Source of the DNA: a virus
Length of the DNA stretch: 64,000 bases
Virus record (IMG/VR): IMGVR_UViG_3300020442_002635
Coordinates: 1 to 64,000 of that record
Direction: 5' to 3' (one strand)
Below, piece after piece: positions 37,818-52,770 of this stretch. The stretch's first letter is position 1. Every line of letters begins with the position of its first letter. Made by a program: the position numbers and the translations under genes. The notes beneath the pieces are model-generated. The model saw only the letters and a list, made by a program, of their open reading frames with translations. It did not search any database and was not told the DNA's origin.

Positions 37818-38579
37818 CTATTTCTTTCTATATTTATAAACTTCCTCAGCGGTAATAATACTAGAACGTTTACGAATTAACTCTTTGACTGCAGGATCAT
37901 TTTCTTGTTCTTTTGTTGGTAGATAAATTGCCTTTGAATGTGTTGCACAATTCTTTGGAGGATCAGTTAGATAATAAACTGCAATACTTTTACGATACTT
38001 ATCTTCTGGACACTGAATAGGATCTGGAAGCCCATGGTAAGAATTCTGAGTTGTGTCAAAAATAATTGCACGATTGAATAGTGTATCAATCTTTGTTGTA
38101 TTAGTTTTTGATTGTAGATGTAACTGACCACCCCATGAAGGATCCCAGCCTTCACCAAGATAGATAATCAGATTTAGTTTTCTCTGTAATTTTAACTTTG
38201 GATGAATAGAATAATCCAAATGCATATTCAACTTATCACCCTGACCATGAAGATGCATACCACCTCCATGCAAACCTACATCAGGATATAACTTTTTAAT
38301 GCCAGTAATTTTTTTGAGTTTAGAAATAAACTGTTGTGAGTTTAGATAGCAAAAAGTAGAATATGCATTTCGTGGAAAAAAGTTCCATGAATTACATGCT
38401 CTCTTCTTTTCTAATGGATTGTTATATATGTGCCAAACGTCTGAATTATAGTCAGGAAACTCATGACTAATTGCCAATGCAGTTTCCTCATCAAAGAAAT
38501 TATCAATGACTACATGATCATAAGGTTTTGCGTTCAAAAATTGTTCCTGAAGATTCAAGTAATCAAGTTTATTGATCAT
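37818..38579 (-). CDS. 2OG-Fe(II) oxygenase (prolyl-hydroxylase-like)
   Basis: PYDHVVIDNF, LHGGGMH, HLDY, RKLNLIIYL, WGGQL, FNRA.IF...HG.P...RKSIA. Confidence 0.9.
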   Translation of the reverse strand: MINKLDYLNLQEQFLNAKPYDHVVIDNFFDEETALAISHEFPDYNSDVWHIYNNPLEKKRACNSWNFFPRNAYSTFCYLNSQQFISKLKKITGIKKLYPDVGLHGGGMHLHGQGDKLNMHLDYSIHPKLKLQRKLNLIIYLGEGWDPSWGGQLHLQSKTNTTKIDTLFNRAIIFDTTQNSYHGLPDPIQCPEDKYRKSIAVYYLTDPPKNCATHSKAIYLPTKEQENDPAVKELIRKRSSIITAEEVYKYRKK

Positions 38580-39208
38580 AGATAATAGTCTTCAGTATAG
38601 ATTGTAGAATGCATACTAACATCTTCTTCTACAATATGCAAGTCTTTGGGTTTGAAATCTTTTCCTGTTCCAATCCAAAGTTCTCTATCAACCTTACGTT
38701 CAAATCCTCTAGTGAATAAGAAATTATGGTCAAGTGTTTGTAGATAATCTGCATTAGCCCACCAGAAGTTACCACTGAAATGTGGTAATGGTTTCTGTCT
38801 CACTTTGACACCAACGCAATTATATTCATCTAGATGATGGAGACACTGCTTCCATTTATCAATGACATAGTATTCCATGAACAATCTCCATGCCTGAAGT
38901 TGTGGATGGTATGAGTCATTCTTACTCGCACCTTTACCATGGAAGAATAGAACTTTATAGTCAGGATTCTTCATGATAAAATCCATCATCGAAACCATTG
39001 TACCACCTTCATCACCAGTAAAATCATTGTATTGAACAATTGCATTTCTTGGTTTGGAGAACATCTCATATTGGCCACTAACTCCAATATGAATAAACTC
39101 TGCAGCATCAACTAATCCAGATGTATACAAACGATGCATCTGTTGTTGATAGATAAACCCTGCAGTATTAGTTTGATATAGATGATAGAAAATTGCGATT
39201 TTACTCAT
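38576..39208 (-). CDS. putative glycosyltransferase-like protein
   Basis: IAIFYH, FHGKG, HFSGNFWWA, RELWIG motifs seen in phage/giant-virus glycan loci; function inferred. Confidence 0.6.
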   Translation of the reverse strand: MSKIAIFYHLYQTNTAGFIYQQQMHRLYTSGLVDAAEFIHIGVSGQYEMFSKPRNAIVQYNDFTGDEGGTMVSMMDFIMKNPDYKVLFFHGKGASKNDSYHPQLQAWRLFMEYYVIDKWKQCLHHLDEYNCVGVKVRQKPLPHFSGNFWWANADYLQTLDHNFLFTRGFERKVDRELWIGTGKDFKPKDLHIVEEDVSMHSTIYTEDYYL

Positions 39209-39953
39209 AAACTTTATCTTCTCCTAATGGAACTTCTGATGACAATCCAGGTGTAGCATTATGGTCTGCAAAATAACCACTTAGTCCAATAGGACTCAAT
39301 TCTAAAACTTTTTCTTGATCTAAAACAGCATACATGACATGTTCAATATCAGTAAATTCTCCAGATTTATATTTGCTAATTATTAAGTCAAACATATCTT
39401 TATACTTAATTTTCATGTACTCTATAAGAGTCCCATCAAAAGAGTATAGTCTGGTTCTATACTTAAATTTTGAAACAGGTTCAAATAAACCCGAATCTCC
39501 ATAATATGGAGATGCATTTAGTTTAGGTCCAAAAATTAATTTTCCTTTTGCTGACTCATGAATAAGGTAATTAAAATTATCATTTAGATAATATCTACCG
39601 GAAATTTTATATATTCTATCGTTTTCCTTTAAAAAATCTTGTTGATTCAAAAACAAATATAATAGATATAACTCGCATGGATGTTTGAAAACATTGGGTT
39701 TATGGTTAGCATGTGCAAATTTAATAAAGTCATCGCTATAACAGTCAAGAACTATATCACATGAAGATAAAAGAACTCTTTTTTGTTCTTCTGTTAAAGG
39801 TTTAGCTGCTCCGTCAATAAGAACTATTTTAGAATCATTACATTTTTTTCTTATACTTGATATTGTTTCCAATGTCTGCTCAAATCTTTGATCTGAATTA
39901 AAAAATCCATAATCAACATTAATACCAGATGTAATCAAAAACCAATTTGTCAT
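39201..39953 (-). CDS. putative glycosyltransferase-like protein
   Basis: FLITS.I, RFEQTL.TI.SIR, KISGRY, DIEH motifs. Confidence 0.55.
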   Translation of the reverse strand: MTNWFLITSGINVDYGFFNSDQRFEQTLETISSIRKKCNDSKIVLIDGAAKPLTEEQKRVLLSSCDIVLDCYSDDFIKFAHANHKPNVFKHPCELYLLYLFLNQQDFLKENDRIYKISGRYYLNDNFNYLIHESAKGKLIFGPKLNASPYYGDSGLFEPVSKFKYRTRLYSFDGTLIEYMKIKYKDMFDLIISKYKSGEFTDIEHVMYAVLDQEKVLELSPIGLSGYFADHNATPGLSSEVPLGEDKVYE

Positions 39954-39998
39954 TTTATTTTTACGTTGTGTACCTGAAGAATTACAAATAAGTGAGTT

Positions 39999-40616
39999 TT
40001 ATTTTCCATGGAAAAATAATAATTGAACTAATCTTGCTGATTGATCATCAGTACCAAACCACTCACCATTAGAGTGCCACATAAATGGATTGAACATTAC
40101 AAGGCGATTATACTTGAATGCGATATTATCAGTCTCAATCCATTTACTACGATCTTTTCCTTCAGTATTAAAGAAGTCTACCATATCATTATGGGATTGT
40201 ATACCATGTTCTTCAGCTTCTGCCATGCCTGGCGCAAACTCCCATCCAGTTCTTTTATGTTTCCAGAACTTTGTACCACCTGTTGGATGGAATGTTGGAG
40301 TGAGATAAATCACTCCCGCCCATACTAATCCTGGATTGGGATCAAAGTGAACATCTTGCGTTCCATGTTGACCTATCTTAGTTCTTCTAAAGTAAGAACA
40401 CTTGTTATATGGCTTTGTTGTGAGTTCCATACCAACAATATCTGAACATACTTTAGTAAGTTCTTCTTTGCCATGCTCATGTTCACTATCACGACCAGGC
40501 CAGTTTCTTACCTTATCTTCTTGATATTCTACACCTAATGCATAGTCACGAACTGAATCTGGATTTTGGTAGAAATTATCAACTACAATTAAATTCTTTC
40601 TGTAAGATTTTTCCAT
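39999..40616 (-). CDS. 2OG-Fe(II) oxygenase (DUF6445-like)
   Basis: VVDNFY.NPD.VR, HFD, GVIYL, GGT.F, YNRLV.F...HS, RLVQL.F. Confidence 0.85.
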   Translation of the reverse strand: MEKSYRKNLIVVDNFYQNPDSVRDYALGVEYQEDKVRNWPGRDSEHEHGKEELTKVCSDIVGMELTTKPYNKCSYFRRTKIGQHGTQDVHFDPNPGLVWAGVIYLTPTFHPTGGTKFWKHKRTGWEFAPGMAEAEEHGIQSHNDMVDFFNTEGKDRSKWIETDNIAFKYNRLVMFNPFMWHSNGEWFGTDDQSARLVQLLFFHGK

Positions 40617-41227
40617 TTATTCAATGCTTCTCTTGCCATTTGTAATGCTAGTGGTTTATCACCTGTTCCTGTATGTATGAGGTATTCTCTCTGCCATGGT
40701 TCCCATGTAATTCCAGTATACCTGAGACCATACTTGGCCATGTTTTGAGAAATACAATACTCATCGATGTCACCCTCACGAACAAATGTGATGCGTCTAC
40801 CCTGTTCAGGAGTAATCGTCAAAGGTTCCCATACATCATGAGTAGAACGATATGATATAACAAAGTTTGATGCAATACCAACATCACGACCATCACGCAT
40901 AAAGTAATGATTCAGATGAAACTTTGTACTTGCATTATAGTTATCATTGAATCCAATGTGATGTGGAGGTACAATCGTTGCAGCATCAGGAAACTGTGGA
41001 TGAATCAGAACATCTGCATCCACAAGAAGATTTACATCAGCATCTTTCCCTGCCTCCCATACCTGCATCTTTTCATAGTTGATATGAAACTCAGGAAACT
41101 TTCGTTCAGTAATTAGATTAATGTCATAACCATATCTCTGTGCATATGCTTGCACAGTAGGAAAAGTCATTTCAAATAACTCAGGAAAAAAGTTATTGAT
41201 ATTAACAATGTGTAGAATCTTTTTCAT
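40589..41227 (-). CDS. GT-A glycosyltransferase (DxD)
   Basis: AYA.RYGYD, YEK, LVDADVLI. Confidence 0.75.
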   Translation of the reverse strand: MKKILHIVNINNFFPELFEMTFPTVQAYAQRYGYDINLITERKFPEFHINYEKMQVWEAGKDADVNLLVDADVLIHPQFPDAATIVPPHHIGFNDNYNASTKFHLNHYFMRDGRDVGIASNFVISYRSTHDVWEPLTITPEQGRRITFVREGDIDEYCISQNMAKYGLRYTGITWEPWQREYLIHTGTGDKPLALQMAREALNKWKNLTERI

Positions 41228-41820
41228 GAAATATTACCTGCAACAGAGATACGATAGTTATCACTTGTAAAGAATGGATATACTGTATGAAGAAGTTTAC
41301 TTGGGAACATAACGATACGACCTTCCCATCCATTTGTTACTTCTAATCTTTCATTAAGGATATTACCAAGAACACTAGAATAAACAAACTGAAATGCTGA
41401 TGCTGTTTTTAAAGTAGAGTTCTGACTATGAGGTACTTGGTATTCATTTTCAATGTTATATGGAATCTGCATCCAGATAACAAAACTCAGTAAACCATCG
41501 TGGTTATGAATGGGGTTATACTCAGTTTTACTTTGATAATTTACCCATAAACTATCTACTTTGAAGTCATAATCTGGATAGTAATCAAAGTGTTTTCCAT
41601 ATTGACGTGCCATTTCTTCAAGAAATGGATTCATAAACTCTTGTGACTTTTTAAGTTGATACTCTTTTTTTATTTGCCCAGCAAGAGAGTTATTCATTTT
41701 TAAGTATCCAGCATCACTTTTCTCTATTTCTTTAATTTCAGACATCAATCCTTCAAAAATATTACGAGGAAGAGTGCTTATTGTAAGGCCAGGATTTTTT
41801 AAGTGAACGTGATTAAACAT
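41224..41820 (-). CDS. 2OG-Fe(II) oxygenase (TIGR02466-like)
   Basis: WVNYQ...YNPIHNHDG.LSFV, FPS.L.H.VYPF...RISVAGN. Confidence 0.9.
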   Translation of the reverse strand: MFNHVHLKNPGLTISTLPRNIFEGLMSEIKEIEKSDAGYLKMNNSLAGQIKKEYQLKKSQEFMNPFLEEMARQYGKHFDYYPDYDFKVDSLWVNYQSKTEYNPIHNHDGLLSFVIWMQIPYNIENEYQVPHSQNSTLKTASAFQFVYSSVLGNILNERLEVTNGWEGRIVMFPSKLLHTVYPFFTSDNYRISVAGNIS

Positions 41821-42685
41821 TTAATTTAAGATAAGAGTTTTCAGGTAATGACCAAGGATTTTTATTTCTTTCCCAAAGATTAATTACGTCTTCATTTGAC
41901 CAATAGAAAGGTTTATCTCCAGCAACAGACATGTGCATAAGATCTGGTTGAAGAGGCATGAACATCATAAAGTCTGGTTTTTGCCATACTTCAGAGATTG
42001 TATTGCCTTCCCAGATAGCAGGATCACTACCTGTTGTTTGGAGAGTATCAAAAATATCTTTATACTTTTTGAAAACCTCGGCCTTAAGCATGAACGTCTC
42101 TTGAGTATACCATGTTGTGCGATAAAAACCAACTGGTGTTGGTACTACATGACAAGGACGAACATATGCATGAGCAAAACGATTATCTGGATATGGAAAT
42201 AACTGAACAAAACATTGAGGGAAAATCCCAATGTCATGCTCAGGTGTAAAATTATTTAAATATTCCCATGCAGATATCATTCTTGTGATTGCATTATCCT
42301 GATGCAATTGATCATCATCCATGATATAGACATAATCTTCATCAGGTAATGTGTAGATATAGTCATAGGCCAATTTGACACTATACCTAGATTGTACATG
42401 AGGACTTTGCCCTTCAGTATTTCTTTCTCCAATAAATTGAATATTTACTTTCTTGCCAGACTTCTCTGACATCCCATGGATTCCATTCTTTAAATGTTGA
42501 CTAGAACGATCATCAAATATTGTTACATCAACATTCTCAAAGTCTTTGATATTTCTGAATACAGAATTAAGACAGCGCAATGTACACTCTGTCTTATTTA
42601 CAATTCTTTTACTTTGAATAGAACCTCTATCGCAGGTTCTGACTACAATATGTAGATTATTGTTCAGTAACATATCGTTTATCAA
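41813..42685 (-). CDS. GT2-like glycosyltransferase
   Basis: IVVRTC, CL.S, IFDD.S, YIMDDDQLH. Confidence 0.7.
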   Translation of the reverse strand: MINDMLLNNNLHIVVRTCDRGSIQSKRIVNKTECTLRCLNSVFRNIKDFENVDVTIFDDRSSQHLKNGIHGMSEKSGKKVNIQFIGERNTEGQSPHVQSRYSVKLAYDYIYTLPDEDYVYIMDDDQLHQDNAITRMISAWEYLNNFTPEHDIGIFPQCFVQLFPYPDNRFAHAYVRPCHVVPTPVGFYRTTWYTQETFMLKAEVFKKYKDIFDTLQTTGSDPAIWEGNTISEVWQKPDFMMFMPLQPDLMHMSVAGDKPFYWSNEDVINLWERNKNPWSLPENSYLKLNV

Positions 42686-43199
42686 TATTCATAGAGACTG
42701 CAATTCTTCGTGCATCAGTCTTAGGGACTTCATGATGCAACCATGCTGGGAAAACAACCAACATACCAGTTTCAGGTTGAACTTTTACTTCATCCTCAAA
42801 AATAATTGGAGCACATCCAGGTTCAACATCAACATAATAGACAGCAGCAAAGTCACTTGGATAGTGTGAGTGTCTAATTGTATGATCACCCTTCTCATAC
42901 ATCATAGCCCAAAAGTTGAAGCAGATAAAATCAACTTCACAATTAAAAAAATCTTTTGATGCAAACTTACAGAAGTTCAGGACCACATCAATGATTGGTT
43001 TGAACTTTGGATTATCATTATGTGTTCCATAATTTGAGTGCCATGCCTTAACATTACTCTCATTAGATTCTGGATTATTATTACGATGCTCAAAGATAAC
43101 CTGCTTGAGATATGCATTCATCTCATCCTTATTGCTAAGGATAGTTGTGAATATGGGTAGTGTCTTTTTAATCGTTTTGATTTCTACAGTGTTTATCAT
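42657..43199 (-). CDS. 2OG-Fe(II) oxygenase (TIGR02466-like)
   Basis: WAMMY..GD.T..HSH....AVYY, FPAWLHHEV....RIAVSMN. Confidence 0.9.
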   Translation of the reverse strand: MINTVEIKTIKKTLPIFTTILSNKDEMNAYLKQVIFEHRNNNPESNESNVKAWHSNYGTHNDNPKFKPIIDVVLNFCKFASKDFFNCEVDFICFNFWAMMYEKGDHTIRHSHYPSDFAAVYYVDVEPGCAPIIFEDEVKVQPETGMLVVFPAWLHHEVPKTDARRIAVSMNIDKRYVTEQ

Positions 43200-43852
43200 A
43201 ACCAGGTTTTATGAATAGTTGAAAGTCCATGATTCTTATCATATGCATAGATACCATCTTGGACAATAGGAAAGATATCTGCACGAAGAATAACATCAAG
43301 TGTTGTTGTGATTCCTTGTTGTAAAACATAAGAAATCATATTCTTTGCAATATGTGGATCAATAGCATATGCATGAGCACGACAGATGAAACGATAGAGA
43401 CCATTATGATCTGTTCCATGTGGAGGAATTGAAATTACCTCTGCACCACGTTTCTGCTCTGATGATCCCAGATATACAATATTATTCAAATACTTATGGA
43501 ACATATAAGGCCTTTCCATCACTGCATCGTGCTCAAGAATTACGATAGGTTTATCAATACTCAAACAATGACACCATAGTGCAAAGTGACTATAGAAAGT
43601 TGCAATCTGAGTTGGAGTAATCCATGATGTATGAACACGCAAGAAATTAATAAATGCCTGATCTTTTAATCCTTCAGGCACCTTGATTTCTCCTGACCTA
43701 CCATTAAATGCCTCAAACAGTTTGTATGGTTGTCCTACATTTTCACAAGACTGTATGCATTGCTGAGTAAGTTTCTCAGATATTTCATCTCCTGGAAGTG
43801 TAATAATATATGCACTCTCTACATTTGTGTCATATGATGCCAAATAATTCAT
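43196..43852 (-). CDS. GT25-family glycosyltransferase
   Basis: AYII, F.AF.G, SHFALW, ILEHDA, AHAYAI.P..AK. Confidence 0.85.
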   Translation of the reverse strand: MNYLASYDTNVESAYIITLPGDEISEKLTQQCIQSCENVGQPYKLFEAFNGRSGEIKVPEGLKDQAFINFLRVHTSWITPTQIATFYSHFALWCHCLSIDKPIVILEHDAVMERPYMFHKYLNNIVYLGSSEQKRGAEVISIPPHGTDHNGLYRFICRAHAYAIDPHIAKNMISYVLQQGITTTLDVILRADIFPIVQDGIYAYDKNHGLSTIHKTWL

Positions 43853-44682
43853 ACAAATTCAGGATAAAAAGTCTTGTAGTATTCTATATTATTTTGAATC
43901 ACCAGTTGTGATTGCTCTGGTGTCATTACCTTTGGCCAACGTGGTTCTAACTTATGAAGTTTAGTTCCAGTCTTGTGTGTGACCATTGAACGATACACAG
44001 TATCATGTTCATAATAATCGGAAGGTGGGATATTGTCAAAATCGTGTTCAAAGTATTCCTCACCAAGGAACTGATAGAGACTTTGGAATGTTCCTCTTGG
44101 ATTTTCGTTGAAGTCTTCGTGTCTTAGGATAAAGAAATTATCTGGATGCTTCTGTGCTACTTCCATGACATGTGGAAGCATATTTAATGGACGACCAAGA
44201 TTGGCCATACCATCAGTACAATACAACTCCATTCTTTTTTCAAATGGTTCGTGTTGGAAATGATGAGTTTCATCACCAACAATAATATTCGGATACTTAT
44301 TAAGAAGAGATTCAAATGAACAAATAATATCTCTTAGATCTCTAATAATATAAATGTATTTTGAATTTGGATTGAGTGCAAGAGTATGATTCAAATATTC
44401 AGACCATACCCTTGACTTTGATACAACAACTGGTTTATCTGTCATACTCTCAAACCATCCACGAAATCCTTGTCGCAGAAAGTTTAGATATGCATCATTG
44501 AGTACATCTTTATCAAGTGCAATAAATTCACTAACCTGACTTGAAATATTCCTACAGGATTCTACAAAATAAGGAAGTGGACATGTGCCAGTCGTAAAAA
44601 ATCTTGGATTCTCATTCAGGATATTCATGATCACTGATGAGCAAGTTCTAGGAAGGCCTAGACAATAATGAAGTTGTTGCAT
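43849..44682 (-). CDS. sulfotransferase
   Basis: GLPRTCSS (5'-PAPS-binding loop), IL..NP, K.R.W, IRDLRDI.CS (3'-PB motif). Confidence 0.85.
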   Translation of the reverse strand: MQQLHYCLGLPRTCSSVIMNILNENPRFFTTGTCPLPYFVESCRNISSQVSEFIALDKDVLNDAYLNFLRQGFRGWFESMTDKPVVVSKSRVWSEYLNHTLALNPNSKYIYIIRDLRDIICSFESLLNKYPNIIVGDETHHFQHEPFEKRMELYCTDGMANLGRPLNMLPHVMEVAQKHPDNFFILRHEDFNENPRGTFQSLYQFLGEEYFEHDFDNIPPSDYYEHDTVYRSMVTHKTGTKLHKLEPRWPKVMTPEQSQLVIQNNIEYYKTFYPEFV

Positions 44683-44706
44683 AATTTAGAAATTTTGAGT
44701 ATTTAT
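44680..44706 (-). promoter_or_regulatory. T4-type late promoter and leader of enzyme block 2
   Basis: Minus ATAAATActcaaaatttctaaattATG; 26/27 identical to 50872-50898. Confidence 0.8.
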
Positions 44707-44733
44707 CAGTTTAGTTAACCATACTAAGATTTA

Positions 44734-45873
44734 TCAAGGTTCCTTTAGGAAGGCAATAGCACTACTATTGGCATATCCATGTGCTTGCTTCCATTGTGTT
44801 CCTGGAAGTTGAACTGGCGATGAACGTAGTACTCGGCCATTAAGACCTAACTGACCAGACTGATTAACACCCCATACCCAGAATGTGTCATCAGTTTTAA
44901 GTCCTTGTATATATCCGTTACCTGCTCCTATAAAACTCCATGTTCCTGGAACTTGAACTGGTGATGAACGATTCGCTTTATCACTTTGAGCCAGCTGTCC
45001 ATATCCATCATAACCCCACATCCATAATGTTCCATCAGTCTTGGTTGCAGCACCAGCAGCCCAACCACCTTCAACTATATCCCAATATGTTCCTGGAATT
45101 TGAACCGGTGATGAATATTGTACTCTATCATTTTGAGCATAGTTTCCATATCCATTATTTCCCCACCCCCATAATGTTCCATCAGTTTTAGATGCCATCA
45201 TAAAAGGTCCACCAGCATGTATTTTATTCCATTGAGTTCCTGAAATTTGTTTTGGTGATGAATATGTTACTCGATTATTTTGACCTAATCTACCGTCACC
45301 ATTTTCTCCCATTACCCACAGTGTTCCATCAGTTTTAGATGCCATTAGATCACCATTGCCCCCTCTAACCAGATCCCACTGTGTTCCTGGAACTTGAGTT
45401 GGTGAAGAACGATCTACTGTATCACTATGACCAGCTCGTCCATTACCATTATGTCCCCATGTCCATAGTGTTCCATCAGTCTTGGTTGCAACTTGAGTTC
45501 CACTATTTTCTGATGCAATATATTTCCATGTCGTTCCTGGAATTTGAATTGGTGATGAACGTGATACTACATCATTCTGACCTAATTGACCATTGGTGCC
45601 GGCACCCCATATCCAAAGTGTTCCATCAGTTTTGGTTGCCATCAAATTACCATAAACATCACTGGTAATCCTCGACCATGTTGTTCCTGGAATTTGTGTT
45701 GGTGATGAACGTTGTACTGTATCATTCTGTCCAAGTCTTGCACCTGCATTATCTCCTGAGACATATAATAAAAATGGTCCAGGTATCGCTGATGGATCAG
45801 AATAACTATTTTTCCCATCTTTAGTTAGATCATAGAGGCCATCCAGGTCCCAGGTGTTCTTTCTTATACTCAT
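44734..45873 (-). CDS. class C RCC1-like beta-propeller protein
   Basis: Short N-terminus NTWDLDGLYDL..DG..SY; seven blades. Confidence 0.85.
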   Translation of the reverse strand: MSIRKNTWDLDGLYDLTKDGKNSYSDPSAIPGPFLLYVSGDNAGARLGQNDTVQRSSPTQIPGTTWSRITSDVYGNLMATKTDGTLWIWGAGTNGQLGQNDVVSRSSPIQIPGTTWKYIASENSGTQVATKTDGTLWTWGHNGNGRAGHSDTVDRSSPTQVPGTQWDLVRGGNGDLMASKTDGTLWVMGENGDGRLGQNNRVTYSSPKQISGTQWNKIHAGGPFMMASKTDGTLWGWGNNGYGNYAQNDRVQYSSPVQIPGTYWDIVEGGWAAGAATKTDGTLWMWGYDGYGQLAQSDKANRSSPVQVPGTWSFIGAGNGYIQGLKTDDTFWVWGVNQSGQLGLNGRVLRSSPVQLPGTQWKQAHGYANSSAIAFLKEP

Positions 45874-46472
45874 TGTACCTCAGAGTAATTGATTCCGCTA
45901 TCTGACTTATTTAGTTTAGTCCAACTCACAAAAGAATATTTAGTTCCACTTTGGAGTTCTGAACTATAATGAACATGAGTAATTGCTGATGGAGCAAGAA
46001 TCATTGTACCAATAGGAGTATCTTTATTGGTAAACTGTTGACGAGGATAGATCAGTTCCCCTCCACTATAACCATGATTGAGTTTAATTGTACCAGTATA
46101 CAAACTATCATCAGCATGTGGACGCAGGCCTCTCTGACCTTCCATTGTATACTTAATGATAAAAGGTACTTTCCAACCAACAAACCATTGATCACTTGGT
46201 AAACCAATTTTTTGTTCCAAGAAAGGAGAGATGACACGTTTCCAGTGCTGACAATAGTTTAAGTAGAACAAATCACTAATTCTACTGATACGTATCTCTT
46301 GACCATACACAGGGTCTCCTGGTTGGCTCTGAAACCCACCTTCAATGTTCTCTGCAATATTGATCAGTGCTTCACAGAATTCTGGTTTCCAGAACTCAAC
46401 AGCATACATATCATTTCCAAGATCCCATGTCTTGGGATTTTCTACTACAGCATCTAAGTAAGTATTATTCAT
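45870..46472 (-). CDS. 2OG-Fe(II) oxygenase resembling the lysyl hydroxylase (PLOD) catalytic domain
   Basis: FC..LI..AE, FIIKY....QRGLRPHADDS.YT..I.LN..Y.GG, THVH......G.KY..VS. Confidence 0.8.
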   Translation of the reverse strand: MNNTYLDAVVENPKTWDLGNDMYAVEFWKPEFCEALINIAENIEGGFQSQPGDPVYGQEIRISRISDLFYLNYCQHWKRVISPFLEQKIGLPSDQWFVGWKVPFIIKYTMEGQRGLRPHADDSLYTGTIKLNHGYSGGELIYPRQQFTNKDTPIGTMILAPSAITHVHYSSELQSGTKYSFVSWTKLNKSDSGINYSEVQ

Positions 46473-47134
46473 TTCAGTAACTCATCACACTTGTCATAGA
46501 AAAGACTGTTGTATATATTCAATCGAGTCTCAAATAGATGATAGAACATATTCACACCAAGATGATTTGAGTATGTTGTTCCAATACCATACTCACCACG
46601 TCCTTGACCAAGATCCCATACTGCATTTCTTGGACGACGTTGGAAATGAGTTGGCATATAGAATTCTACTTCTTTACCACGTTTCTCTGCTTCTAATGTA
46701 TAGAAACCACAGGTATCAGCATTACGATGATCTGGCATGAATGTTAACCTGTTGAATTCCTCAAACATTTGACGACTCAGACAAAATGTTGATGGAGCAG
46801 CATACATGTGCTCTGGATTTTCTAGGTGAGCTCCAATTTGTGCATTACCCACTAGTTTACCATTCTCTACTTGATCAAATGTATACTCAAGCGCATATTG
46901 ATTCAATGGAATGCAATCAACGTCAAGGAGCATGACAGTATCATATCCTTTATTGAATAGTTCATTGAATCCATACTCAACTCCTTGAGGATGAATAACT
47001 TCCTCTCCATGTGTTTGTGAACACAAAGGAAGAAAGTCTGCTGTCTTATTAAACTTTTTGATTACTTCACTTTGAAGACGTACAATCTCTTCATCAATAG
47101 AAAGATTATAGAATGTAAATATTGCTCTCTTCAT
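46469..47134 (-). CDS. GT-A glycosyltransferase (DxD)
   Basis: LLDVDCIPL, L.GNAQ..H, YAAP, YG.GT.Y. Confidence 0.7.
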   Translation of the reverse strand: MKRAIFTFYNLSIDEEIVRLQSEVIKKFNKTADFLPLCSQTHGEEVIHPQGVEYGFNELFNKGYDTVMLLDVDCIPLNQYALEYTFDQVENGKLVGNAQIGAHLENPEHMYAAPSTFCLSRQMFEEFNRLTFMPDHRNADTCGFYTLEAEKRGKEVEFYMPTHFQRRPRNAVWDLGQGRGEYGIGTTYSNHLGVNMFYHLFETRLNIYNSLFYDKCDELLK

Positions 47135-47745
47135 GATGCTCCATTCACCCTTGCGTACATATTTGCTGCGACAACATATCTAGGTTCTTCAGAATCTGGT
47201 AGAACACTCTTATGAGATAACCATCCAGGGAAAATAATCCAACTGTATTCATACCCTGCAATTGATTGAAACTGACTGCCAAGTGCAGGGGCTGTTCGTG
47301 GATCATGAAATTCTGTTCCACCTACTGCAGGATCACCAGGAACTTTAATGTAATAAACTCCAGAAAGAAATGCGGGATTATGATGATGCCATGGGTTTTG
47401 TTGTCCTTGCTCCATAGATTTCCATGACTTATATACCCATGCACTACATCCTGTAAATTCGATATTCTGTTGTTGCGAACAGAACTGTGGTGTTGCTTCA
47501 AGATAGTTTTCACATGCTCTCACAAAAGTTCTCTTCAACTTCTGCCATACTGCAGGAGCATCATTCTGAAAAATAACCAATGATGTCTGATACTTTGGCG
47601 TCAACTCATTATCAGTATAAACACCATTTTCAATCAACATATCAGTGCTATCCATCATATCCTGATGATCTTGGGGATTGATGAAGTCACTGCAATCTGT
47701 TCTTACAGCATTTGTTGGAAATAGATTATAAGTTTCTACTTTCAT
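47131..47745 (-). CDS. 2OG-Fe(II) oxygenase (TIGR02466-like)
   Basis: WHHH...LSGVYY, GTEF.DPR, IFPGWLSH.....RYVVAAN. Confidence 0.85.
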   Translation of the reverse strand: MKVETYNLFPTNAVRTDCSDFINPQDHQDMMDSTDMLIENGVYTDNELTPKYQTSLVIFQNDAPAVWQKLKRTFVRACENYLEATPQFCSQQQNIEFTGCSAWVYKSWKSMEQGQQNPWHHHNPAFLSGVYYIKVPGDPAVGGTEFHDPRTAPALGSQFQSIAGYEYSWIIFPGWLSHKSVLPDSEEPRYVVAANMYARVNGAS

Positions 47746-47747
47746 GT

Positions 47748-48449
47748 TTAATAAAATTTAGATGAATAGTTTGGTTTAATCTCTCTACCTGAAATTATAT
47801 CATTGACTCTCCTGTTCCACAACTCAGGTAGTTCTTCTTTATCAATAAAATCACTAATCCTAAAATAGTGCCATGATCCAGGATATAGTGTTCCTTTACC
47901 CATATAACCATAGTGTGCAAGTGTTGAACGATGGCTATCAAATCCAGTGGGATAAATTAAACGATAGTCCATACCAATTTGATTTGCACGATTTGTAATC
48001 TCCTGTGCAGTATCAATCAACAACTCACCACCATTCTCAAGTGGAATATGATATGCCTTGAAACTAGGTTTTCCTAATTTCTCCCATCCTTTCTTTGAGA
48101 CAAGAATTAGTCCAGGTGCTGCATACAAATAGTTTTTGTGTGGCATGTGCCCAATATTCTGAGCATTACCTACGAAAGAATCATTTGCCTTAGCCCATGA
48201 ATATGCAGAATATAATACATCTTCACTAGTAGGAAGACAATCAATGTCAATAAAACATACAACATCATCATCTTCCTGCTCCATCATCTTGGTTTCAAAT
48301 TCACCATGAGCAAAGAATGCCTCATCAAAAGTATCAAATGCAGGGTATTCGTGATAGTGAACTTCAAGTCCTACTCTTTCAGAACATTTTTTATGATCTT
48401 CAACTATTTGTTTGGGAAGATTGTGAGTATAGAAACTATGAAATCTCAC
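47748..48449 (-). CDS. GT-A glycosyltransferase (DxD), paralogue of 46469..47134
   Basis: FIDIDCLP, FVGNAQNIGH, YAAP, DT.Q, YG..G.GT.Y. Confidence 0.7.
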   Translation of the reverse strand: MRFHSFYTHNLPKQIVEDHKKCSERVGLEVHYHEYPAFDTFDEAFFAHGEFETKMMEQEDDDVVCFIDIDCLPTSEDVLYSAYSWAKANDSFVGNAQNIGHMPHKNYLYAAPGLILVSKKGWEKLGKPSFKAYHIPLENGGELLIDTAQEITNRANQIGMDYRLIYPTGFDSHRSTLAHYGYMGKGTLYPGSWHYFRISDFIDKEELPELWNRRVNDIISGREIKPNYSSKFY

Positions 48450-49737
48450 GTTCTAAAACCTCATGTAGAACTTTAATTGCATCATCCCACTTATTGTATT
48501 GAGATTGTTTGATGACTGTTACATTATCACCATACCATTCATACTTATCTGAAGCCCAGGTGATATAAGCAACAAGTGGTGGCATCACAATAACTCGTTT
48601 ACCCATTGCACCTGCAAGGTGTGCAGTTGCAGTACATGATGTGATGATTAGATCACTCTCTTCAAAAATATTGTAGGTATCAGTCCAATCATTGATGAGA
48701 TGAGTTATATCCCATACTGGAGCATTCTTTGGAAGATCACATTCTTCCATTTGAAGAGAGAACAATTGTCCATACTTATCCAGTTTGAGAATTTCTTCAA
48801 CTGGAATACTACGAAACTGATCATGTTCAAACTCTGGATTACCTTTCCATCGAACACAAATCTTCTTTCGACCTTTTGCAACTTCATTCATCTCAGGAAC
48901 TGGTTTTGCTTCCATCTTGAGATAAGGAAACTCTACACCTTCACAAGGATGATCTAGTTTCAAAAGATATGGAGCTGACATTGCAGGAACAAACTTATTC
49001 CACTTGGTTCTTACAATATCTTCAGTTAGATATACATTCTCATAACCACATGCTTCAAACAAAGATTTTGTTTTTGGTGTTGCAAAGATCTTAAGTGTAT
49101 TGCAATACTTCTTGAAATGGTTTGCATATCGAATGAAGATCATTTCATCACCCATACCACCTTCAAGATAGTATGCAATAGTATCTACTGTTTCACCATT
49201 CCAACGACTTTCTTCACCAATATTGTACTTCAGTTTCAACAACCATTCATGACCCCACACACGAAGATTGGCACCTGTACGAACATATTCATATCCTTTA
49301 TAAAAATCTTCTTCCATAAGAAACCACCCATAGTTAAATGAGGCTTGGGGAATCTTATCTGCAAGTGGTTTCAGGATACGAACACTCTCATCAAACTTTC
49401 CTTGTGCAGTCGTATACAAAGAAAGATCGATCTGAGTCATAGGATCTTCACGAACTTGTTTTGGAAGTGATTTGATTATTTTTTCTGCTTCAGGAGCACG
49501 ACGTAGATAATATAGACACTTTGCTCTGTTTACCTTAATTTGTGGAGATGGATTCTTAATGTTGTTAAGAACTACAAGTGCCTTGTCAAATTCTTTATCA
49601 TCATGATGAATCTTTGCAAGACTATTTGCAACCTCAGGATCATCTTCATGTTTCAGATATGCAATTGCAAGTCCTTTTGCTGCTTGAGGTTCTCCTTTCT
49701 CAATCAATTCAAGAATAAGTTGTCTAATCATAATCAA
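48436..49737 (-). CDS. TPR-repeat + GT9-like glycosyltransferase
   Basis: Helical TPR-like N-terminal half; W.GE, EGGMGD.MIF.RY, W.GNP...HD..RSI, DLIITSCTATAHLAGAMG. Confidence 0.85.
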   Translation of the reverse strand: MIMIRQLILELIEKGEPQAAKGLAIAYLKHEDDPEVANSLAKIHHDDKEFDKALVVLNNIKNPSPQIKVNRAKCLYYLRRAPEAEKIIKSLPKQVREDPMTQIDLSLYTTAQGKFDESVRILKPLADKIPQASFNYGWFLMEEDFYKGYEYVRTGANLRVWGHEWLLKLKYNIGEESRWNGETVDTIAYYLEGGMGDEMIFIRYANHFKKYCNTLKIFATPKTKSLFEACGYENVYLTEDIVRTKWNKFVPAMSAPYLLKLDHPCEGVEFPYLKMEAKPVPEMNEVAKGRKKICVRWKGNPEFEHDQFRSIPVEEILKLDKYGQLFSLQMEECDLPKNAPVWDITHLINDWTDTYNIFEESDLIITSCTATAHLAGAMGKRVIVMPPLVAYITWASDKYEWYGDNVTVIKQSQYNKWDDAIKVLHEVLEREIS

Positions 49738-50312
49738 TAAACTCTCTTTGTTCCTGCTTCCAATCCAATGTTTGGTCTCGTATCATATAACTTATCTTGA
49801 TACGGTCCATTTGCTTCCACATAATGCATGAAGATCTGATACTGTGTTGTTCCTTGGAATGGTTCTCTCCAATGAACAACTTTATCTCCTCTATAAACTA
49901 CAGCATCACCTTCACTTAGATTTGCATGGACTGCACGATTTTCATCTTGAAATGAAAGTGGCCATAGTGCATCATACTCTCCACCTAATGAGACAGAGAC
50001 AGAATGCTGACACTCTGGACGATCCTTATGAGGAAGTAGATCTGCTCCATTGAAGTAGATCCTTGCATATGTGTATGTTGGTAGCAATTTCTTTCCAACA
50101 CTCTCTTCTACCATAGGTAGACACATTAGCATCAACATATCAAATGCAGGATCTCCATAGATGCCAAGAGATTTTTCTACCTGATCATCACCTTTGTTTG
50201 GAACTTGATCATTCCTTCTCAAAAGTTCAAAGTAGTTTCTTAGATATTGAGCAAGATACTGTGGAATAAAACCTTGTCTTATATCAAATCCTTTCTGTTC
50301 GTATTGTGTCAT
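49734..50312 (-). CDS. 2OG-Fe(II) oxygenase
   Basis: LLPTYTYARIY...L.PHKDRP.C..S, GD.V.Y.G...HWR.PF.G...QIF.HY. Confidence 0.88.
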   Translation of the reverse strand: MTQYEQKGFDIRQGFIPQYLAQYLRNYFELLRRNDQVPNKGDDQVEKSLGIYGDPAFDMLMLMCLPMVEESVGKKLLPTYTYARIYFNGADLLPHKDRPECQHSVSVSLGGEYDALWPLSFQDENRAVHANLSEGDAVVYRGDKVVHWREPFQGTTQYQIFMHYVEANGPYQDKLYDTRPNIGLEAGTKRVY

Positions 50313-50874
50313 AAAGTCGCTGCTCTGTCTCTAACCATGAAACCAATGTATATCTGAATCCATACTTAACTGGATGCACTTTATGTGCAAATTCATGAGA
50401 AGAAGGGAATGCTATCATCATACCTTTCTTTGGTCTGATAGTCAATCCTAAGTGAGTAAACTCAAGTTCTCCACCCATATAGTCATCATTGAGATAGTAA
50501 AGAATAGAAATATCTCTAGGAGCAATTCTCTTCCACTTACCATCCTCAAACTGTTCAGAATCATTGTGTTCTATATAGTGACCTCCAACAGGATAACCTA
50601 GAAACTGAACTGGTTCTATATTTTTAACTTTTGAATTATATTTCTTGTGCATGTATTGATCATAACAAGACATCACTGCTGAATTAAGATTCAACAGCAT
50701 TTCATGTGGGATAGGATACCACAAGGTTTTTCTTGTGGTATGTTCCACATCTTGGTCATCACTCGACCCAACAGTCGCATATGATGTTTCTTGATTTGTC
50801 AATTTCATCAATTCATGAATGTGATAATCAGGCACCACATTCGGTTGAATAATAATTTGATCAAAAGGATTCAT
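50284..50874 (-). CDS. 2OG-Fe(II) oxygenase (prolyl 4-hydroxylase/PKHD-like)
   Basis: Y..GGHY..HND, R.IS..YLNDDY.GGE, FPS...AHKV.PV..G.RY.LV.W. Confidence 0.9.
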   Translation of the reverse strand: MNPFDQIIIQPNVVPDYHIHELMKLTNQETSYATVGSSDDQDVEHTTRKTLWYPIPHEMLLNLNSAVMSCYDQYMHKKYNSKVKNIEPVQFLGYPVGGHYIEHNDSEQFEDGKWKRIAPRDISILYYLNDDYMGGELEFTHLGLTIRPKKGMMIAFPSSHEFAHKVHPVKYGFRYTLVSWLETEQRLYDTIRTERI

Positions 50875-50899
50875 AATTTAGAAATTTTGATTATTTATA
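50872..50899 (-). promoter_or_regulatory. T4-type late promoter TATAAATA and leader of enzyme block 1
   Basis: Minus TATAAATAatcaaaatttctaaattATG; its TAA is also the stop of the RCC1 gene ending at 50895. Confidence 0.85.
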
Positions 50900-52058: not shown

Positions 52059-52068
52059 TTATTTACCC

Positions 52069-52770
52069 TCAGTCTAGATGTTCCCAGCGAATAGAAAGTG
52101 AAGGATCATAGTGTCCTACGATAACATCTCTATCATCAACACCAACACCAACACCACTTTCTTCTGTACCAATCTTTTCTGGTTTGGTGATTTCTGTCCA
52201 ACTAGCTAATGCATTGGCAAGACTAGAATCATCGAATGACAGACCTTCAAGTCTATCAGTGATTTTACCACGCAAACCAGCAATCTTTGCTTCAGTTGTT
52301 CTGAATGCTTCGTGATTGGTTACAATCTTGGTTGCCATTGCAAGTGTTGTCAACCCTCTTGCAGTTGCTTCTGTTGCAACAATACCAGCATCAGCACTAT
52401 TATCTGCAACATATGCCTTTGCTAGGTCATACTTATAAACGCCGGCAATAGTAGCAGTATCTCCATACTTACTAAATTGAGAACTACGAATTCCTTTCTC
52501 TTGCTCATATGCAAGATTGGTTCTACCCAATTTTAATGCATTAAATCCATCTTTAATAACTGCAATATATGCTGCCTCGGTGATTTCAAAGATGTAATTA
52601 TCATCATCAGCTGCTGCAGAATCATCAGCAGTTGCATATGTCAAACCATCAAATTCAAAGATGTTAGCAAGACCAGCTAGATTTGGATTAGTTGGACCTT
52701 CTACTGGTTTTTCAATTTCGACGGATTTTCCAGTCGAAGCATCGACCTTGTAAAACTTAAAGAACTTCAT
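52069..52770 (-). CDS. putative tail-fibre assembly/chaperone-like protein
   Basis: EATARG....[LM]A.KI..N...F....A.I.G.R.K helical motif typical of fibre-assembly proteins; lies between two RCC1 genes; own late promoter. Confidence 0.65.
   Translation of the reverse strand: MKFFKFYKVDASTGKSVEIEKPVEGPTNPNLAGLANIFEFDGLTYATADDSAAADDDNYIFEITEAAYIAVIKDGFNALKLGRTNLAYEQEKGIRSSQFSKYGDTATIAGVYKYDLAKAYVADNSADAGIVATEATARGLTTLAMATKIVTNHEAFRTTEAKIAGLRGKITDRLEGLSFDDSSLANALASWTEITKPEKIGTEESGVGVGVDDRDVIVGHYDPSLSIRWEHLD

What the first reader, a model, noticed from the sequence alone, without database searches (positions are those of the whole stretch)
37818..50899. Candidate new system: late-expressed hydroxylation/glycosylation/sulfation machinery for virion propeller proteins
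Seen: 17 enzyme genes (8 2OG-Fe(II) oxygenases of at least five subtypes, about 8 glycosyltransferase-like proteins including a TPR-GT fusion, and 1 sulfotransferase). They largely alternate oxygenase-GT, are mostly translationally coupled, and are embedded among RCC1 genes. Both blocks start at T4-type late promoters, and no nucleotide-metabolism genes lie inside. Most propeller blades carry S-S-P-x-Q-[IVL]-P-G. Established: collagen prolyl 4-hydroxylases act on X-Pro-Gly; hydroxy-Pro/Lys are glycosylated in eukaryotes and giant viruses; TPR-GT fusions typically act on proteins. Inference: the phage hydroxylates, glycosylates and sulfates its own fibre proteins, giving a glycan coat for adhesion, stability or shielding, rather than modifying DNA or host LPS.
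Basis: partly seen in the sequence, partly recalled or inferred. Interest (0 to 1): 0.85.

Follow-up and report, generated by a model that had tools for sequence, protein, structure and literature searches.

The report
Phage propeller-fibre glycosylation gene cluster
A T4-like cyanophage carries two late operons of sugar-adding, sulfate-adding and hydroxylating enzymes among its tail-fibre genes; the core enzyme sits next to the same propeller protein in hundreds of phages and in Bdellovibrio, which suggests, without proving, that the propellers carry sulfated sugars.

Summary
The observation largely holds. Window 37818-50899 has 17 non-RCC1 genes in two operons, each headed by the same 27-nt late promoter and leader. 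Fourteen of 18 gene junctions overlap.

Enzyme census:
- Oxygenases: 6 firm 2OG-Fe(II) oxygenases and 2 probable.
- Sulfotransferase: 1 firm.
- Glycosyltransferases: GT25, a borderline GT2 and a TPR-GT-B enzyme are supported. Three more rest on a DxD motif. Two (DUF8361 and an orphan) have no support.

- The C-terminal domain of the TPR enzyme folds like GT9 heptosyltransferases. Its best structural match is TibC, which O-glycosylates a repetitive adhesin.
- This domain is encoded beside a window-type RCC1 gene in 73 of 79 GT9-anchored viral loci, in 37 of 62 bacterial loci and in the only three phage isolates that have it.
- It is fused to a sulfotransferase in 35 relatives.
- In Bdellovibrionota the partner RCC1 proteins carry twin-arginine leaders.

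- The oxygenases are not RCC1-specific: homologues occur in 324 phage records, nearly all without RCC1.
- SSPxQxPG is an elaboration of the ordinary RCC1 blade motif.

No modification is shown. The RCC1/GT9-like/sulfotransferase module looks undescribed. First-stage notes on this same stretch raised similar points; none had been followed up.

The parts
50872..50898 (-). Late-type promoter (TATAAATA at 50892-50899) plus leader of enzyme operon 1
   Evidence: The 27-nt element occurs only twice in the window, with one position differing between the two copies.
50284..50874 (-). 2OG-Fe(II) oxygenase of the P4H-type Pfam family 2OG-FeII_Oxy_3
   Evidence: 58.9 bits against a cutoff of 27. Homologues in 324 phage records.
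49734..50312 (-). Probable 2OG oxygenase; this is the cyanophage 'ferrochelatase-domain' hypothetical protein
   Evidence: phrog_2954. Invariant H95/D97/H147. Only sub-threshold AlkB/ALKBH1 hits.
48436..49737 (-). TPR (residues ~1-170) plus GT9-like GT-B glycosyltransferase (~170-433); the core enzyme of the module
   Evidence: Pfam TPR. AF2 pLDDT 94. Foldseek hits: OGT/SPY for the whole protein; TibC, WaaF and WaaC for the domain. Atlas: Glyco_transf_9. Invariant GGxGD.
47748..48449 (-). DxD-motif domain, paralogue of 46469-47134; candidate GT-A
   Evidence: No Pfam hit.
47131..47745 (-). 2OG-FeII_Oxy_5 oxygenase
   Evidence: 42 bits against a cutoff of 27.
46469..47134 (-). DxD-motif domain, candidate GT-A. 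The family is found fused to GT2 domains and once to an Oxy_5 oxygenase.
45870..46472 (-). 2OG oxygenase related to 50284-50874; its stop overlaps the RCC1 start by 4 nt
   Evidence: phrog_61. hhalign 100%, but the two alignments share members. Overlap.
44734..45873 (-). Short seven-bladed RCC1 propeller; last gene of operon 1
   Evidence: Pfam RCC1 and WD40_RLD. UVR8 E = 5e-27.
44680..44706 (-). Late-type promoter (GATAAATA) plus leader of enzyme operon 2
43849..44682 (-). Sulfotransferase; in 35 relatives this domain is fused N-terminally to the TPR-GT9-like enzyme
43196..43852 (-). GT25 glycosyltransferase; second most conserved enzyme partner of RCC1
   Evidence: 41.1 bits against a cutoff of 24. 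Found in 26 of 79 RCC1-anchored loci.
42657..43199 (-). 2OG-FeII_Oxy_5 oxygenase
41813..42685 (-). GT2-like glycosyltransferase (borderline)
41224..41820 (-). 2OG-FeII_Oxy_5 oxygenase; a natural fusion of this type with the 46469-type domain exists (P0290)
40589..41227 (-). Conserved protein of unknown fold with invariant D70xD72; GT-like by motif only
   Evidence: 319 homologues, no Pfam hit, no PDB hit.
39999..40616 (-). DUF6445; probable 2OG/cupin-type oxygenase
   Evidence: Invariant H90/D92/H181/R195.
39201..39953 (-). Orphan family, function unknown
38576..39208 (-). DUF8361 (viral DUF), function unknown
37818..38579 (-). 2OG-FeII_Oxy_3 oxygenase; last gene of operon 2
   Evidence: 55 bits.
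24970..37800 (-). Six long RCC1 paralogues (536-902 aa; one has a double propeller) with fibre-type N-termini. Each is preceded by ATAAATA. Presumed acceptors.
50895..53951 (-). RCC1 (50895-52058), conserved 233-aa spacer gene (52069-52770) and RCC1 (52812-53951); this triplet recurs in relatives
   Evidence: The analogue of the spacer gene hits DUF4376.
14093..16698 (-). Nol/NodU-like carbamoyltransferase plus a 307-aa unknown protein; in relatives these directly follow the enzyme cluster, so they may extend the system

Best explanation
The window comes from a T4-like cyanomyovirus; its nearest isolate is Synechococcus phage S-SRM01. The fibre region encodes nine RCC1 beta-propeller proteins and two late operons of soluble tailoring enzymes.

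Core of the system. It is a dedicated partnership between the RCC1 propellers and three enzymes: a TPR-tethered GT9-like GT-B glycosyltransferase, a sulfotransferase (fused to the GT in most relatives) and a GT25 transferase.

Inferred mechanism.
1. Newly made propellers fold in the cytoplasm.
2. The TPR arm holds the propeller while the GT9-like domain attaches a first sugar to a repeated surface site. The invariant Ser-Ser of each blade is a candidate site.
3. GT25 and the GT-A-like enzymes extend the glycan.
4. The sulfotransferase adds sulfate. In relatives, methyl- and carbamoyl-transferases may add further groups.
5. The result would be charged, glycan-coated receptor-binding propellers on the virion.

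Accessory shell. The eight 2OG oxygenases are specific to this lineage. They may hydroxylate the protein or the glycan, but they are not tied to RCC1.

Shown here: gene families, folds, promoter type, gene linkage and gene fusions.
Inferred: the acceptor, the sites, the sugars and the order of steps.
For: Architecture and fold.
- TPR plus GT-B, with pLDDT 94.
- The whole protein matches the protein O-glycosyltransferases XcOGT, SPY and OGT best.
- The isolated catalytic domain matches TibC best (E = 2e-6, TMq 0.61-0.67), then WaaF, a GT9 protein and WaaC.
- TibC O-heptosylates serines in a repetitive adhesin (PMC4358343).
- The Atlas gives Glyco_transf_9 for 28 of 30 hits.
- GGxGD, a later Asp and a His are invariant from phages to Bdellovibrio.

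Gene linkage.
- 54 of 79 RCC1-anchored viral loci carry the GT9-like gene.
- 73 of 79 GT9-anchored viral loci carry RCC1, and in 52 it is the immediate neighbour. Loci without RCC1 mostly have the GT9-like gene at a contig edge.
- Among 50,697 phage records the GT9-like gene occurs only in the three phages that have window-type RCC1 (hypergeometric P = 1.7e-11).
- 37 of 62 bacterial loci also pair the two genes, including a complete B. bacteriovorus chromosome.

Fusions.
- Sulfotransferase-TPR-GT9 in 35 ORFs, and the reverse order in one.
- The 46469-type domain fused to an Oxy_5 oxygenase, and to GT2 domains.

Other points.
- Bdellovibrionota partner RCC1 proteins have SRRxFL twin-arginine leaders, while the GT9-like proteins have no leader. 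This fits cytoplasmic maturation before export of a folded protein.
- No enzyme has a hydrophobic segment long enough to span a membrane.
- Promoters are late-type and shared with the fibre genes. RCC1 44734-45873 overlaps the upstream oxygenase gene by 4 nt.
- S-SRM01 keeps the same module after its long-tail-fibre gene.
Against: - No direct evidence exists that any virion protein is modified, or that the RCC1 proteins are in the virion. Fibre identity rests on PHROG matches of the N-termini.
- GT9, GT25 and GT2 are classically LPS and glycan enzymes. Relatives also carry UDP-galactopyranose mutase, a sugar epimerase and a CmcI-like methyltransferase. These also fit synthesis of a free or lipid-linked glycan.
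- Pfam's own GT9 and GT41 models do not match the catalytic domain.
- The margin of TibC over WaaF and WaaC is small.
- The oxygenases are distributed independently of RCC1.
- Two 'GT-like' genes have no GT evidence.
- Alternation of oxygenase and GT genes is not significant (P = 0.07).
- The SSP motif is partly ordinary RCC1 consensus.
Confidence: 0.45

Rival explanations
1. Host-envelope remodelling. The enzymes alter host LPS, EPS or another glycan late in infection, for example to block superinfection or ease release. The RCC1 fibres are merely neighbours in a hyperplastic fibre region.
For: - This is the standard reading of cyanophage GT and epimerase clusters (PMC12801897).
- GT9 and GT25 are LPS-core families (Pfam description).
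- Sugar-nucleotide enzymes occur in relatives.
- P-SSM2-type phages are close relatives by a fibre-region gene. That their GT clusters lie near the fibre genes is recalled from memory and was not checked here.
Against: - The GT9-like gene is almost always adjacent to RCC1 in very different phages and in Bdellovibrionota.
- The enzyme has a TPR arm and fusions to a sulfotransferase.
- There is no flippase, polymerase or membrane-bound enzyme.
- The promoters are late-type.
- The cellular RCC1 partners carry twin-arginine leaders.
Confidence: 0.17
2. Split system. Only the GT9-like, sulfotransferase and GT25 core serves the RCC1 propellers. The 2OG oxygenases and the unknown genes do something unrelated, such as DNA or RNA repair, control of 2-oxoglutarate levels, or small-molecule chemistry, as proposed for marine cyanomyoviruses.
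For: - Oxygenase homologues occur in 324 phage records without RCC1.
- Sullivan et al. 2010 list several 2OG oxygenases in 14 of 16 cyanomyoviruses and propose 2OG/NtcA or DNA-repair roles (PMC3037559).
- Distant RCC1/GT9 loci lack detectable oxygenases.
- There are weak AlkB-like hits.
Against: - Here the oxygenases are translationally coupled with the GT genes and with an RCC1 gene, under late promoters.
- A natural fusion of an Oxy_5 oxygenase with the 46469-type domain exists.
- A 2OG oxygenase was detected in a cyanomyovirus virion preparation (PMC12801897).
Confidence: 0.25
3. The GT9-like protein is a non-catalytic assembly or export chaperone for RCC1 propellers, and no glycan is transferred.
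For: - TPR domains often act as chaperones.
- No Pfam GT model matches.
- The pairing with Tat-exported RCC1 proteins could reflect a proofreading chaperone.
Against: - GGxGD, Asp and His are invariant across about 25% identity.
- The protein is fused to a sulfotransferase that passes two Pfam sulfotransferase models.
- GT25 and GT2 consistently accompany it.
Confidence: 0.08
4. DNA hypermodification: TET/JBP-like oxidation of bases followed by glycosylation.
For: Only a sub-threshold Tet_JBP hit (15.7 bits against a cutoff of 34.9).
Against: - The promoters are late-type and there are no nucleotide-metabolism genes.
- The linkage is to fibre genes, not to replication genes.
- A sulfotransferase and a TPR arm have no role in known base-modification pathways (from memory).
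Confidence: 0.03

Closest known systems
TibC/AAH autotransporter heptosyltransferases (BAHT) with TibA/AIDA-I
   Same: - Best structural match of the catalytic domain.
- A soluble cytoplasmic GT-B enzyme, related to the WaaC/WaaF fold, that O-glycosylates serines in a repetitive beta-rich adhesin (PMC4358343).
- That its gene lies next to the adhesin gene is recalled from memory.
   Different: [quoted passage not shown]
- Here a TPR arm replaces the barrel and only one Cys is invariant.
- The partner is a propeller rather than a beta-helix.
- The donor sugar is unknown.
- The context is phage or predatory bacterium.
TPR-GT41 protein O-glycosyltransferases (OGT, SPINDLY, Xanthomonas XcOGT)
   Same: An N-terminal TPR superhelix followed by a GT-B catalytic domain. 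These are the top Foldseek hits for the whole protein.
   Different: TM scores are only 0.3-0.4. The catalytic domain resembles GT9 enzymes and TibC rather than GT41. There is no Pfam GT41 match.
Mycobacteriophage virion glycosylation (Freeman et al. 2023, cited in PMC12801897 as reference 61; the paper itself is not held)
   Same: From memory: phage-encoded glycosyltransferases next to structural genes decorate virion proteins.
   Different: From memory: other GT families act on capsid and tail-tube C-termini, with no TPR-GT9, sulfotransferase or oxygenases.
Hydroxylase plus GT pairs: collagen LH3/GLT25D1, Mimivirus L230, Skp1 P4H1/Gnt1 (from memory)
   Same: A 2OG hydroxylase is followed by a glycosyltransferase acting on the new hydroxyl. 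GT25 is the collagen galactosyltransferase family. A natural fusion of an Oxy_5 oxygenase with the 46469-type domain exists.
   Different: No collagen-like or Skp1-like acceptor is present. Lysyl or prolyl specificity is untested. The oxygenases are not co-distributed with RCC1.
Cyanomyovirus 2OG-oxygenase and 'cell-wall modification' gene sets (P-SSM2, S-SCSM1, S-SCSM2R; PMC3037559, PMC12801897)
   Same: The same oxygenase families, the 'ferrochelatase-domain' hypothetical protein, GT25/GT2 and the carbamoyltransferase, in T4-like cyanophages.
   Different: - Those phages gave no RCC1 or GT9-like hit in the phage searches.
- The literature assigns their genes to host-surface, DNA or 2OG roles.
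- In the papers searched, the term RCC1 never appears together with 'cyanophage'.

Membership tests
2OG-Fe(II) oxygenase superfamily | Match to a family model above the curated cutoff | tested here: met
   Five genes pass Pfam cutoffs. 45870-46472 passes by PHROG and by a non-independent hhalign score.
2OG-Fe(II) oxygenase superfamily | HxD/E...H iron triad in the two unassigned candidates (39999-40616, 49734-50312) | tested here: inconclusive
   The invariant His, Asp and His are present, but no significant profile or PDB match was found.
Collagen-type prolyl 4-hydroxylase acting on X-Pro-Gly | A repeated X-Pro-Gly acceptor that is conserved as such | tested here: not met
   The 'PG' proline is replaced in 12 of 67 blades. 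The first Pro is the canonical RCC1 blade proline. No collagen-like repeats were seen.
GT9 (ADP-heptose:LPS heptosyltransferases) | GT-B fold superposable on WaaC/WaaF | tested here: met
   Foldseek hits 1psw, 3tov, 6dfe and 2h1h at E = 1e-5 to 1e-4 and TMq 0.55-0.60. The Atlas gives Glyco_transf_9.
GT9 (ADP-heptose:LPS heptosyltransferases) | Match to Pfam PF01075 | tested here: not met
   No Pfam hit on the catalytic domain in the window protein or in the Bdellovibrio homologues.
BAHT (TibC/AAH) | Four-Cys iron finger and N-terminal beta-barrel | tested here: not met
   Only one invariant Cys in A3. The N-terminus is a TPR helical arm. Family features are taken from PMC4358343.
GT41 (OGT/SPY) | TPR plus GT-B architecture | tested here: met
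   top hits, but TM scores of only 0.3-0.39.
GT41 (OGT/SPY) | GT41-type catalytic domain | tested here: not met
   The isolated domain matches TibC and GT9 proteins, not OGT. There is no Pfam GT41 hit.
GT25 | Pfam PF01755 above cutoff | tested here: met
   41.1 bits against a cutoff of 24.
Sulfotransferase (PAPS-dependent) | Pfam match above cutoff, plus candidate PAPS-binding motifs | tested here: met
   Sulfotransfer_3 at 48.7 bits and Sulfotransfer_1 at 42.7 bits. GLPRTCSS and RDLRD...S are in the translation. The motif assignment is from memory.
T4-type late promoter | TATAAATA about 10-30 nt upstream of the gene, on the coding strand | tested here: met
   50892-50899 is exact and 44699-44706 is GATAAATA. 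All 19 ATAAATA sites are on the coding strand. Timing of transcription was not measured.
RCC1-like beta-propeller | Seven RCC1 blades | tested here: met
   Pfam RCC1 and WD40_RLD. UVR8 E = 5e-27. Seven motif copies per propeller.
Virion (fibre) protein | Detected in particles, or homologous to a known fibre module | tested here: inconclusive
   The N-termini of the long paralogues match tail-fibre and virion PHROGs at E about 1e-10. The genes sit between baseplate and fibre genes. No proteome is available.

The most novel reading that the evidence does not exclude
The RCC1 propeller, its TPR/GT9-like glycosyltransferase and a sulfotransferase form an undescribed protein-maturation module. It is widespread: at least 584 viral stretches, plus Bdellovibrionota chromosomes. 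Aquatic phages and predatory bacteria would both use it to coat their prey-binding propellers with sulfated glycans in the cytoplasm, before virion assembly or Tat export. In this cyanophage lineage, 2OG oxygenases would add hydroxylation chemistry.
Probability: 0.4. Interest if true: 0.85.

Novelty: new variant of a known kind. Interest (0 to 1): 0.72.

Why it matters
If the propellers are the acceptors, three things follow.
- This would be the first glycosylation and sulfation system for receptor-binding proteins in cyanophages.
- It would give a second, chemical layer of host-range variation in abundant aquatic phages.
- It would assign a job to part of the long-unexplained GT and oxygenase load of T4-like cyanophage genomes, which is usually put down to host-surface or DNA modification.

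The same gene pair in Bdellovibrionota links phage fibres and predator adhesins. It also offers a genetically tractable test bed.

The question can be tested directly, because the cultured phage S-SRM01 carries the module.

Tried and rejected
Searches that gave nothing useful.
- Sequence-profile searches of the PDB for the TPR enzyme returned only TPR hits. Structure prediction was needed instead.
- PDB profile searches gave nothing significant for 38576-39208, 39201-39953, 40589-41227, DUF6445, 49734-50312 and the 46469 family. The only hint was a non-significant alignment of the DxD region of the 46469 family to STIV A197 (E = 0.63).
- All-against-all hhalign of the shallow family alignments linked no unknown to a known family.
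- NCBIfam gave only sub-threshold hints.
- Pfam found nothing for the genes around 15775-19321.

Tests with negative or weak results.
- Alternation of oxygenase and GT genes as a signal: P = 0.07, so not used as evidence.
- SSPxQxPG as a P4H signature: rejected.
- gp23 and psbA were not found in the 88-kb record, which is a fragment. Lineage was set by tblastn instead.

Tools and papers that were unavailable.
- The VIA-align libraries.
- PF27674 is absent from the local Pfam copy.
- The Freeman 2023 paper is not held.

PLOD-type identity of 45870-46472 was not demonstrated.

Full report
WHAT IS THERE

The window is the first 64 kb of an 88-kb IMG/VR virus record estimated to be 41% complete. 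All genes of interest lie on the minus strand. A fibre-region gene (20770-22341) is 63% identical to a gene annotated 'baseplate wedge subunit' in the freshwater Synechococcus phage S-SRM01 (Kyanoviridae). It is 57% identical to its counterpart in P-SSM2 and P-SSM5. The phage is therefore a T4-like cyanomyovirus. The fragment lacks gp23 and psbA.

The fibre region holds nine RCC1 paralogues.
- Six are long (536-902 aa, 24970-37800). Their N-termini match tail-fibre and virion PHROGs.
- Three are short (about 380 aa): 44734-45873, 50895-52058 and 52812-53951.

THE ENZYME CENSUS

Between 37818 and 50899 there are 17 non-RCC1 ORFs.
- Pfam gives five 2OG-Fe(II) oxygenases above cutoff, a GT25, a sulfotransferase, a borderline GT2 and an N-terminal TPR region.
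- 45870-46472 is a sixth oxygenase. It matches phrog_61. Its 100% hhalign score against the 50284 family is not independent, because the two alignments share members.
- DUF6445 (39999-40616) and the cyanophage 'ferrochelatase-domain' protein (49734-50312) keep an invariant His-x-Asp...His. They reach only sub-threshold AlkB-type hits. I count them as probable oxygenases.
- 46469-47134 and 47748-48449 are paralogues with a conserved DxD. An exhaustive search found 402 relatives. In some of them this domain is fused to GT2, GT7C or GT92 domains and to TPRs. In P0290 it is fused to a full-length Oxy_5 oxygenase of the 41224-41820 type.
- 40589-41227 has only an invariant DxD.
- 38576-39208 is DUF8361, and 39201-39953 is an orphan family. 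Neither has any GT evidence.

OPERON STRUCTURE

Fourteen of 18 junctions overlap by 4-29 nt. This includes the junction from oxygenase 45870-46472 into RCC1 44734-45873, so an RCC1 gene is the last cistron of the first enzyme operon.

Each block starts with the same 27-nt promoter plus leader; one position differs between the two copies, and the element occurs nowhere else in the window. The promoter is TATAAATA in one block and GATAAATA in the other.

All 19 ATAAATA sites in the window are on the coding strand, and most lie within about 60 nt of a start codon, including the start of every long RCC1 gene. The total count of sites is no higher than chance. The strand and position bias is what carries the signal. 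Late co-expression with the fibre genes is thus well supported but not measured.

Alternation of oxygenase and GT genes (11 of 14 junctions) is not significant (P = 0.07) and depends on unverified labels.

THE MOTIF

SSPxQ[IVL]PG occurs 55 times strictly and 67 times loosely. Alignment to UVR8 shows that the proline and the hydrophobic residue three positions later are the ordinary RCC1 blade motif; UVR8 blades read SPTQL and SPVQV. The family-specific features are the invariant Ser-Ser, the Gln and the following PGTxW. The 'PG' proline is replaced in 12 of 67 blades. The motif is not a collagen-like hydroxylation signature. The invariant Ser-Ser in every blade remains a reasonable candidate acceptor, but that is inference.

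THE KEY ENZYME

48436-49737 was modelled at pLDDT 94. It is a TPR superhelix followed by two Rossmann-like lobes.
- The whole protein matches the TPR-GT-B protein O-glycosyltransferases best: XcOGT, SPINDLY and human OGT (E = 3e-8 to 1e-5, TM 0.3-0.39).
- The isolated catalytic domain (model at pLDDT 94) matches TibC best (E = 2e-6, TMq 0.61-0.67). Next come WaaF, a GT9 protein and WaaC (TMq 0.55-0.60).
- The Atlas places the domain among Glyco_transf_9 clusters (28 of 30 hits).
- TibC is a cytoplasmic enzyme that O-heptosylates serines of the repetitive adhesins TibA and AIDA-I (PMC4358343).
- The phage domain lacks TibC's beta-barrel and its four-Cys iron finger, and no Pfam GT model matches it. 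It is a separate GT9-like family, not a BAHT member.
- GGxGD, a later Asp and a His are invariant from phages to Bdellovibrio at about 25-30% identity. This argues for an active enzyme.

COMPARATIVE GENOMICS, THE MAIN NEW RESULT

- RCC1-anchored search of IMG/VR. There were at least 577 relatives and 77 loci were fetched. Seventy-nine loci were analysed (these 77 plus the two phage-isolate loci). The GT9-like gene is present in 54, the sulfotransferase in 42 and GT25 in 26. The oxygenases appear only in about 8-9 close relatives. A recurrent order is RCC1, RCC1, [sulfotransferase-TPR-GT9 fusion], RCC1, small ORF, GT25.
- The fusion. Pfam confirms it. It occurs in 35 ORFs, and once in the reverse order.
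- GT9-anchored search of IMG/VR. There were at least 584 relatives. Of the 79 loci with a called GT9-like gene, 73 have an RCC1 gene within 10 kb, and in 52 it is the immediate neighbour. Loci without RCC1 mostly have the GT9-like gene at a contig edge. Partner RCC1 proteins range from about 370 to 3,200 aa, and most flanking genes are unrelated to the window. Several phage groups are therefore involved.
- Phage isolates. Among 50,697 phage records the GT9-like gene occurs only in AG-345-E08, BUCT-ZZ01 and S-SRM01. These are exactly the three phages with window-type RCC1 (P = 1.7e-11). S-SRM01 keeps RCC1, the TPR-GT9 enzyme, an oxygenase, the 47748-, 39201- and 38576-type genes, a sulfotransferase, a GT and an epimerase, all after its long-tail-fibre gene.
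- Cellular genomes. Thirty-seven of 62 GT9-anchored loci also carry RCC1. Many are Bdellovibrionales, including a complete B. bacteriovorus chromosome. There, large RCC1 proteins (up to three propellers, E down to 1e-196) begin with SRRxFL twin-arginine leaders, while the GT9-like proteins have none. Tat exports folded proteins (textbook knowledge), so this is what one expects if the propeller matures in the cytoplasm first.

Homologues of oxygenase 50284-50874 occur in 324 phage records. These are mainly marine Synechococcus phages, and they gave no RCC1 hit. Sullivan et al. 2010 already list several 2OG oxygenases, and the 'ferrochelatase-domain' protein, in most cyanomyoviruses. They propose 2OG/NtcA or repair roles (PMC3037559). 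The oxygenases are thus a general cyanomyovirus feature that this lineage has inserted into the RCC1/GT operons.

Two findings keep a tailoring role possible. One is the natural oxygenase fusion with the 46469-type domain. The other is the detection of a 2OG oxygenase in a cyanomyovirus virion preparation (PMC12801897).

MECHANISM AND RIVALS

I favour, at about 0.45, a cytoplasmic protein-glycosylation system for the RCC1 propellers.
- The TPR arm binds the propeller.
- The GT9-like domain attaches the first sugar.
- GT25 and the GT-A-like enzymes extend the glycan.
- The sulfotransferase adds sulfate.
- In relatives, methyltransferases, UDP-galactopyranose mutase and the carbamoyltransferase widen the chemistry.

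All the enzymes lack membrane-spanning segments.

The main rivals are these.
- Remodelling of host glycans, which is the literature's default.
- A split system in which the oxygenases are unrelated to the propellers.
- A non-catalytic chaperone role for the GT9-like protein.
- DNA modification, which is unlikely.

Nothing here shows an actual modification.

NOVELTY

Phage virion glycosylation, TibC-type adhesin glycosylation and hydroxylase-GT pairs are all known. The RCC1/GT9-like/sulfotransferase module, and its presence in both phages and Bdellovibrionota, was not found in the literature searched.
- No paper contains both 'RCC1' and 'cyanophage'.
- The papers checked that mention both Bdellovibrio and RCC1 do not discuss a GT partner.
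- The S-SRM01 paper does not mention these genes.

I rate this a new variant of a known kind.

First-stage notes on this same stretch raised the shared leader, the TPR-GT enzyme and the unusual sulfotransferase loop. I checked each of them here.

Noticed in passing
window 14093-16698: A Nol/NodU-like carbamoyltransferase and an adjacent 307-aa protein with no Pfam hit. In many relatives this pair directly follows the GT25 end of the enzyme cluster (for example L009, L015, L058, L079, L152-L164). It may belong to the same glycan-tailoring set, displaced here by the six long RCC1 genes.
   Followed up: partly
window 52069-52770: A 233-aa gene that always sits between the first two short RCC1 genes in relatives (RCC1, this gene, RCC1). 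The analogue in L054 hits DUF4376. It may be a fibre assembly or adaptor protein.
   Followed up: partly
L117 (B. bacteriovorus Bd16 chromosome) 4821-16240; also L088, L092, L112: Bdellovibrionota encode multi-propeller RCC1 proteins with twin-arginine leaders next to a leaderless GT9-like gene. Some loci add a methyltransferase-like ORF (N-terminal LGCG motif) or a sulfotransferase. These may be Tat-exported, pre-modified prey adhesins.
   Followed up: partly
window, all 19 ATAAATA sites (e.g. 27451, 29634, 31808, 33447, 35089, 37831): Every ATAAATA lies on the coding strand. Each long RCC1 gene has its own copy 14-31 nt upstream of its start, so each fibre paralogue appears to have its own late promoter.
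   Followed up: yes
P0290 (metagenomic protein, 429 aa): A natural fusion of the 46469-type DxD domain (residues 1-222) with a full-length Oxy_5 oxygenase of the 41224-41820 type (residues 242-425).
   Followed up: partly
L038 15527-16528; L054 12567-13124 and 14433-14798; L003 24545-25576: Related RCC1/GT9 clusters carry UDP-galactopyranose mutase, SAM methyltransferases (one CmcI-like), CxxCxxCC proteins and a nucleotide-sugar epimerase. The tailoring set therefore varies between phages.
   Followed up: partly
L082-L085, L107, L115, L118 (contigs binned into Chlamydiae, Chitinophagaceae, Caulobacter and other MAGs): These short MAG contigs carry the phage-type RCC1/enzyme synteny. They are probably phage DNA binned into bacterial MAGs.
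   Followed up: no
window 58979-60313: A first-stage note reports an alpha/beta-hydrolase triad inside a virion Ig-like protein. Pfam gave no hit at E <= 0.001. It was not examined further.
   Followed up: no
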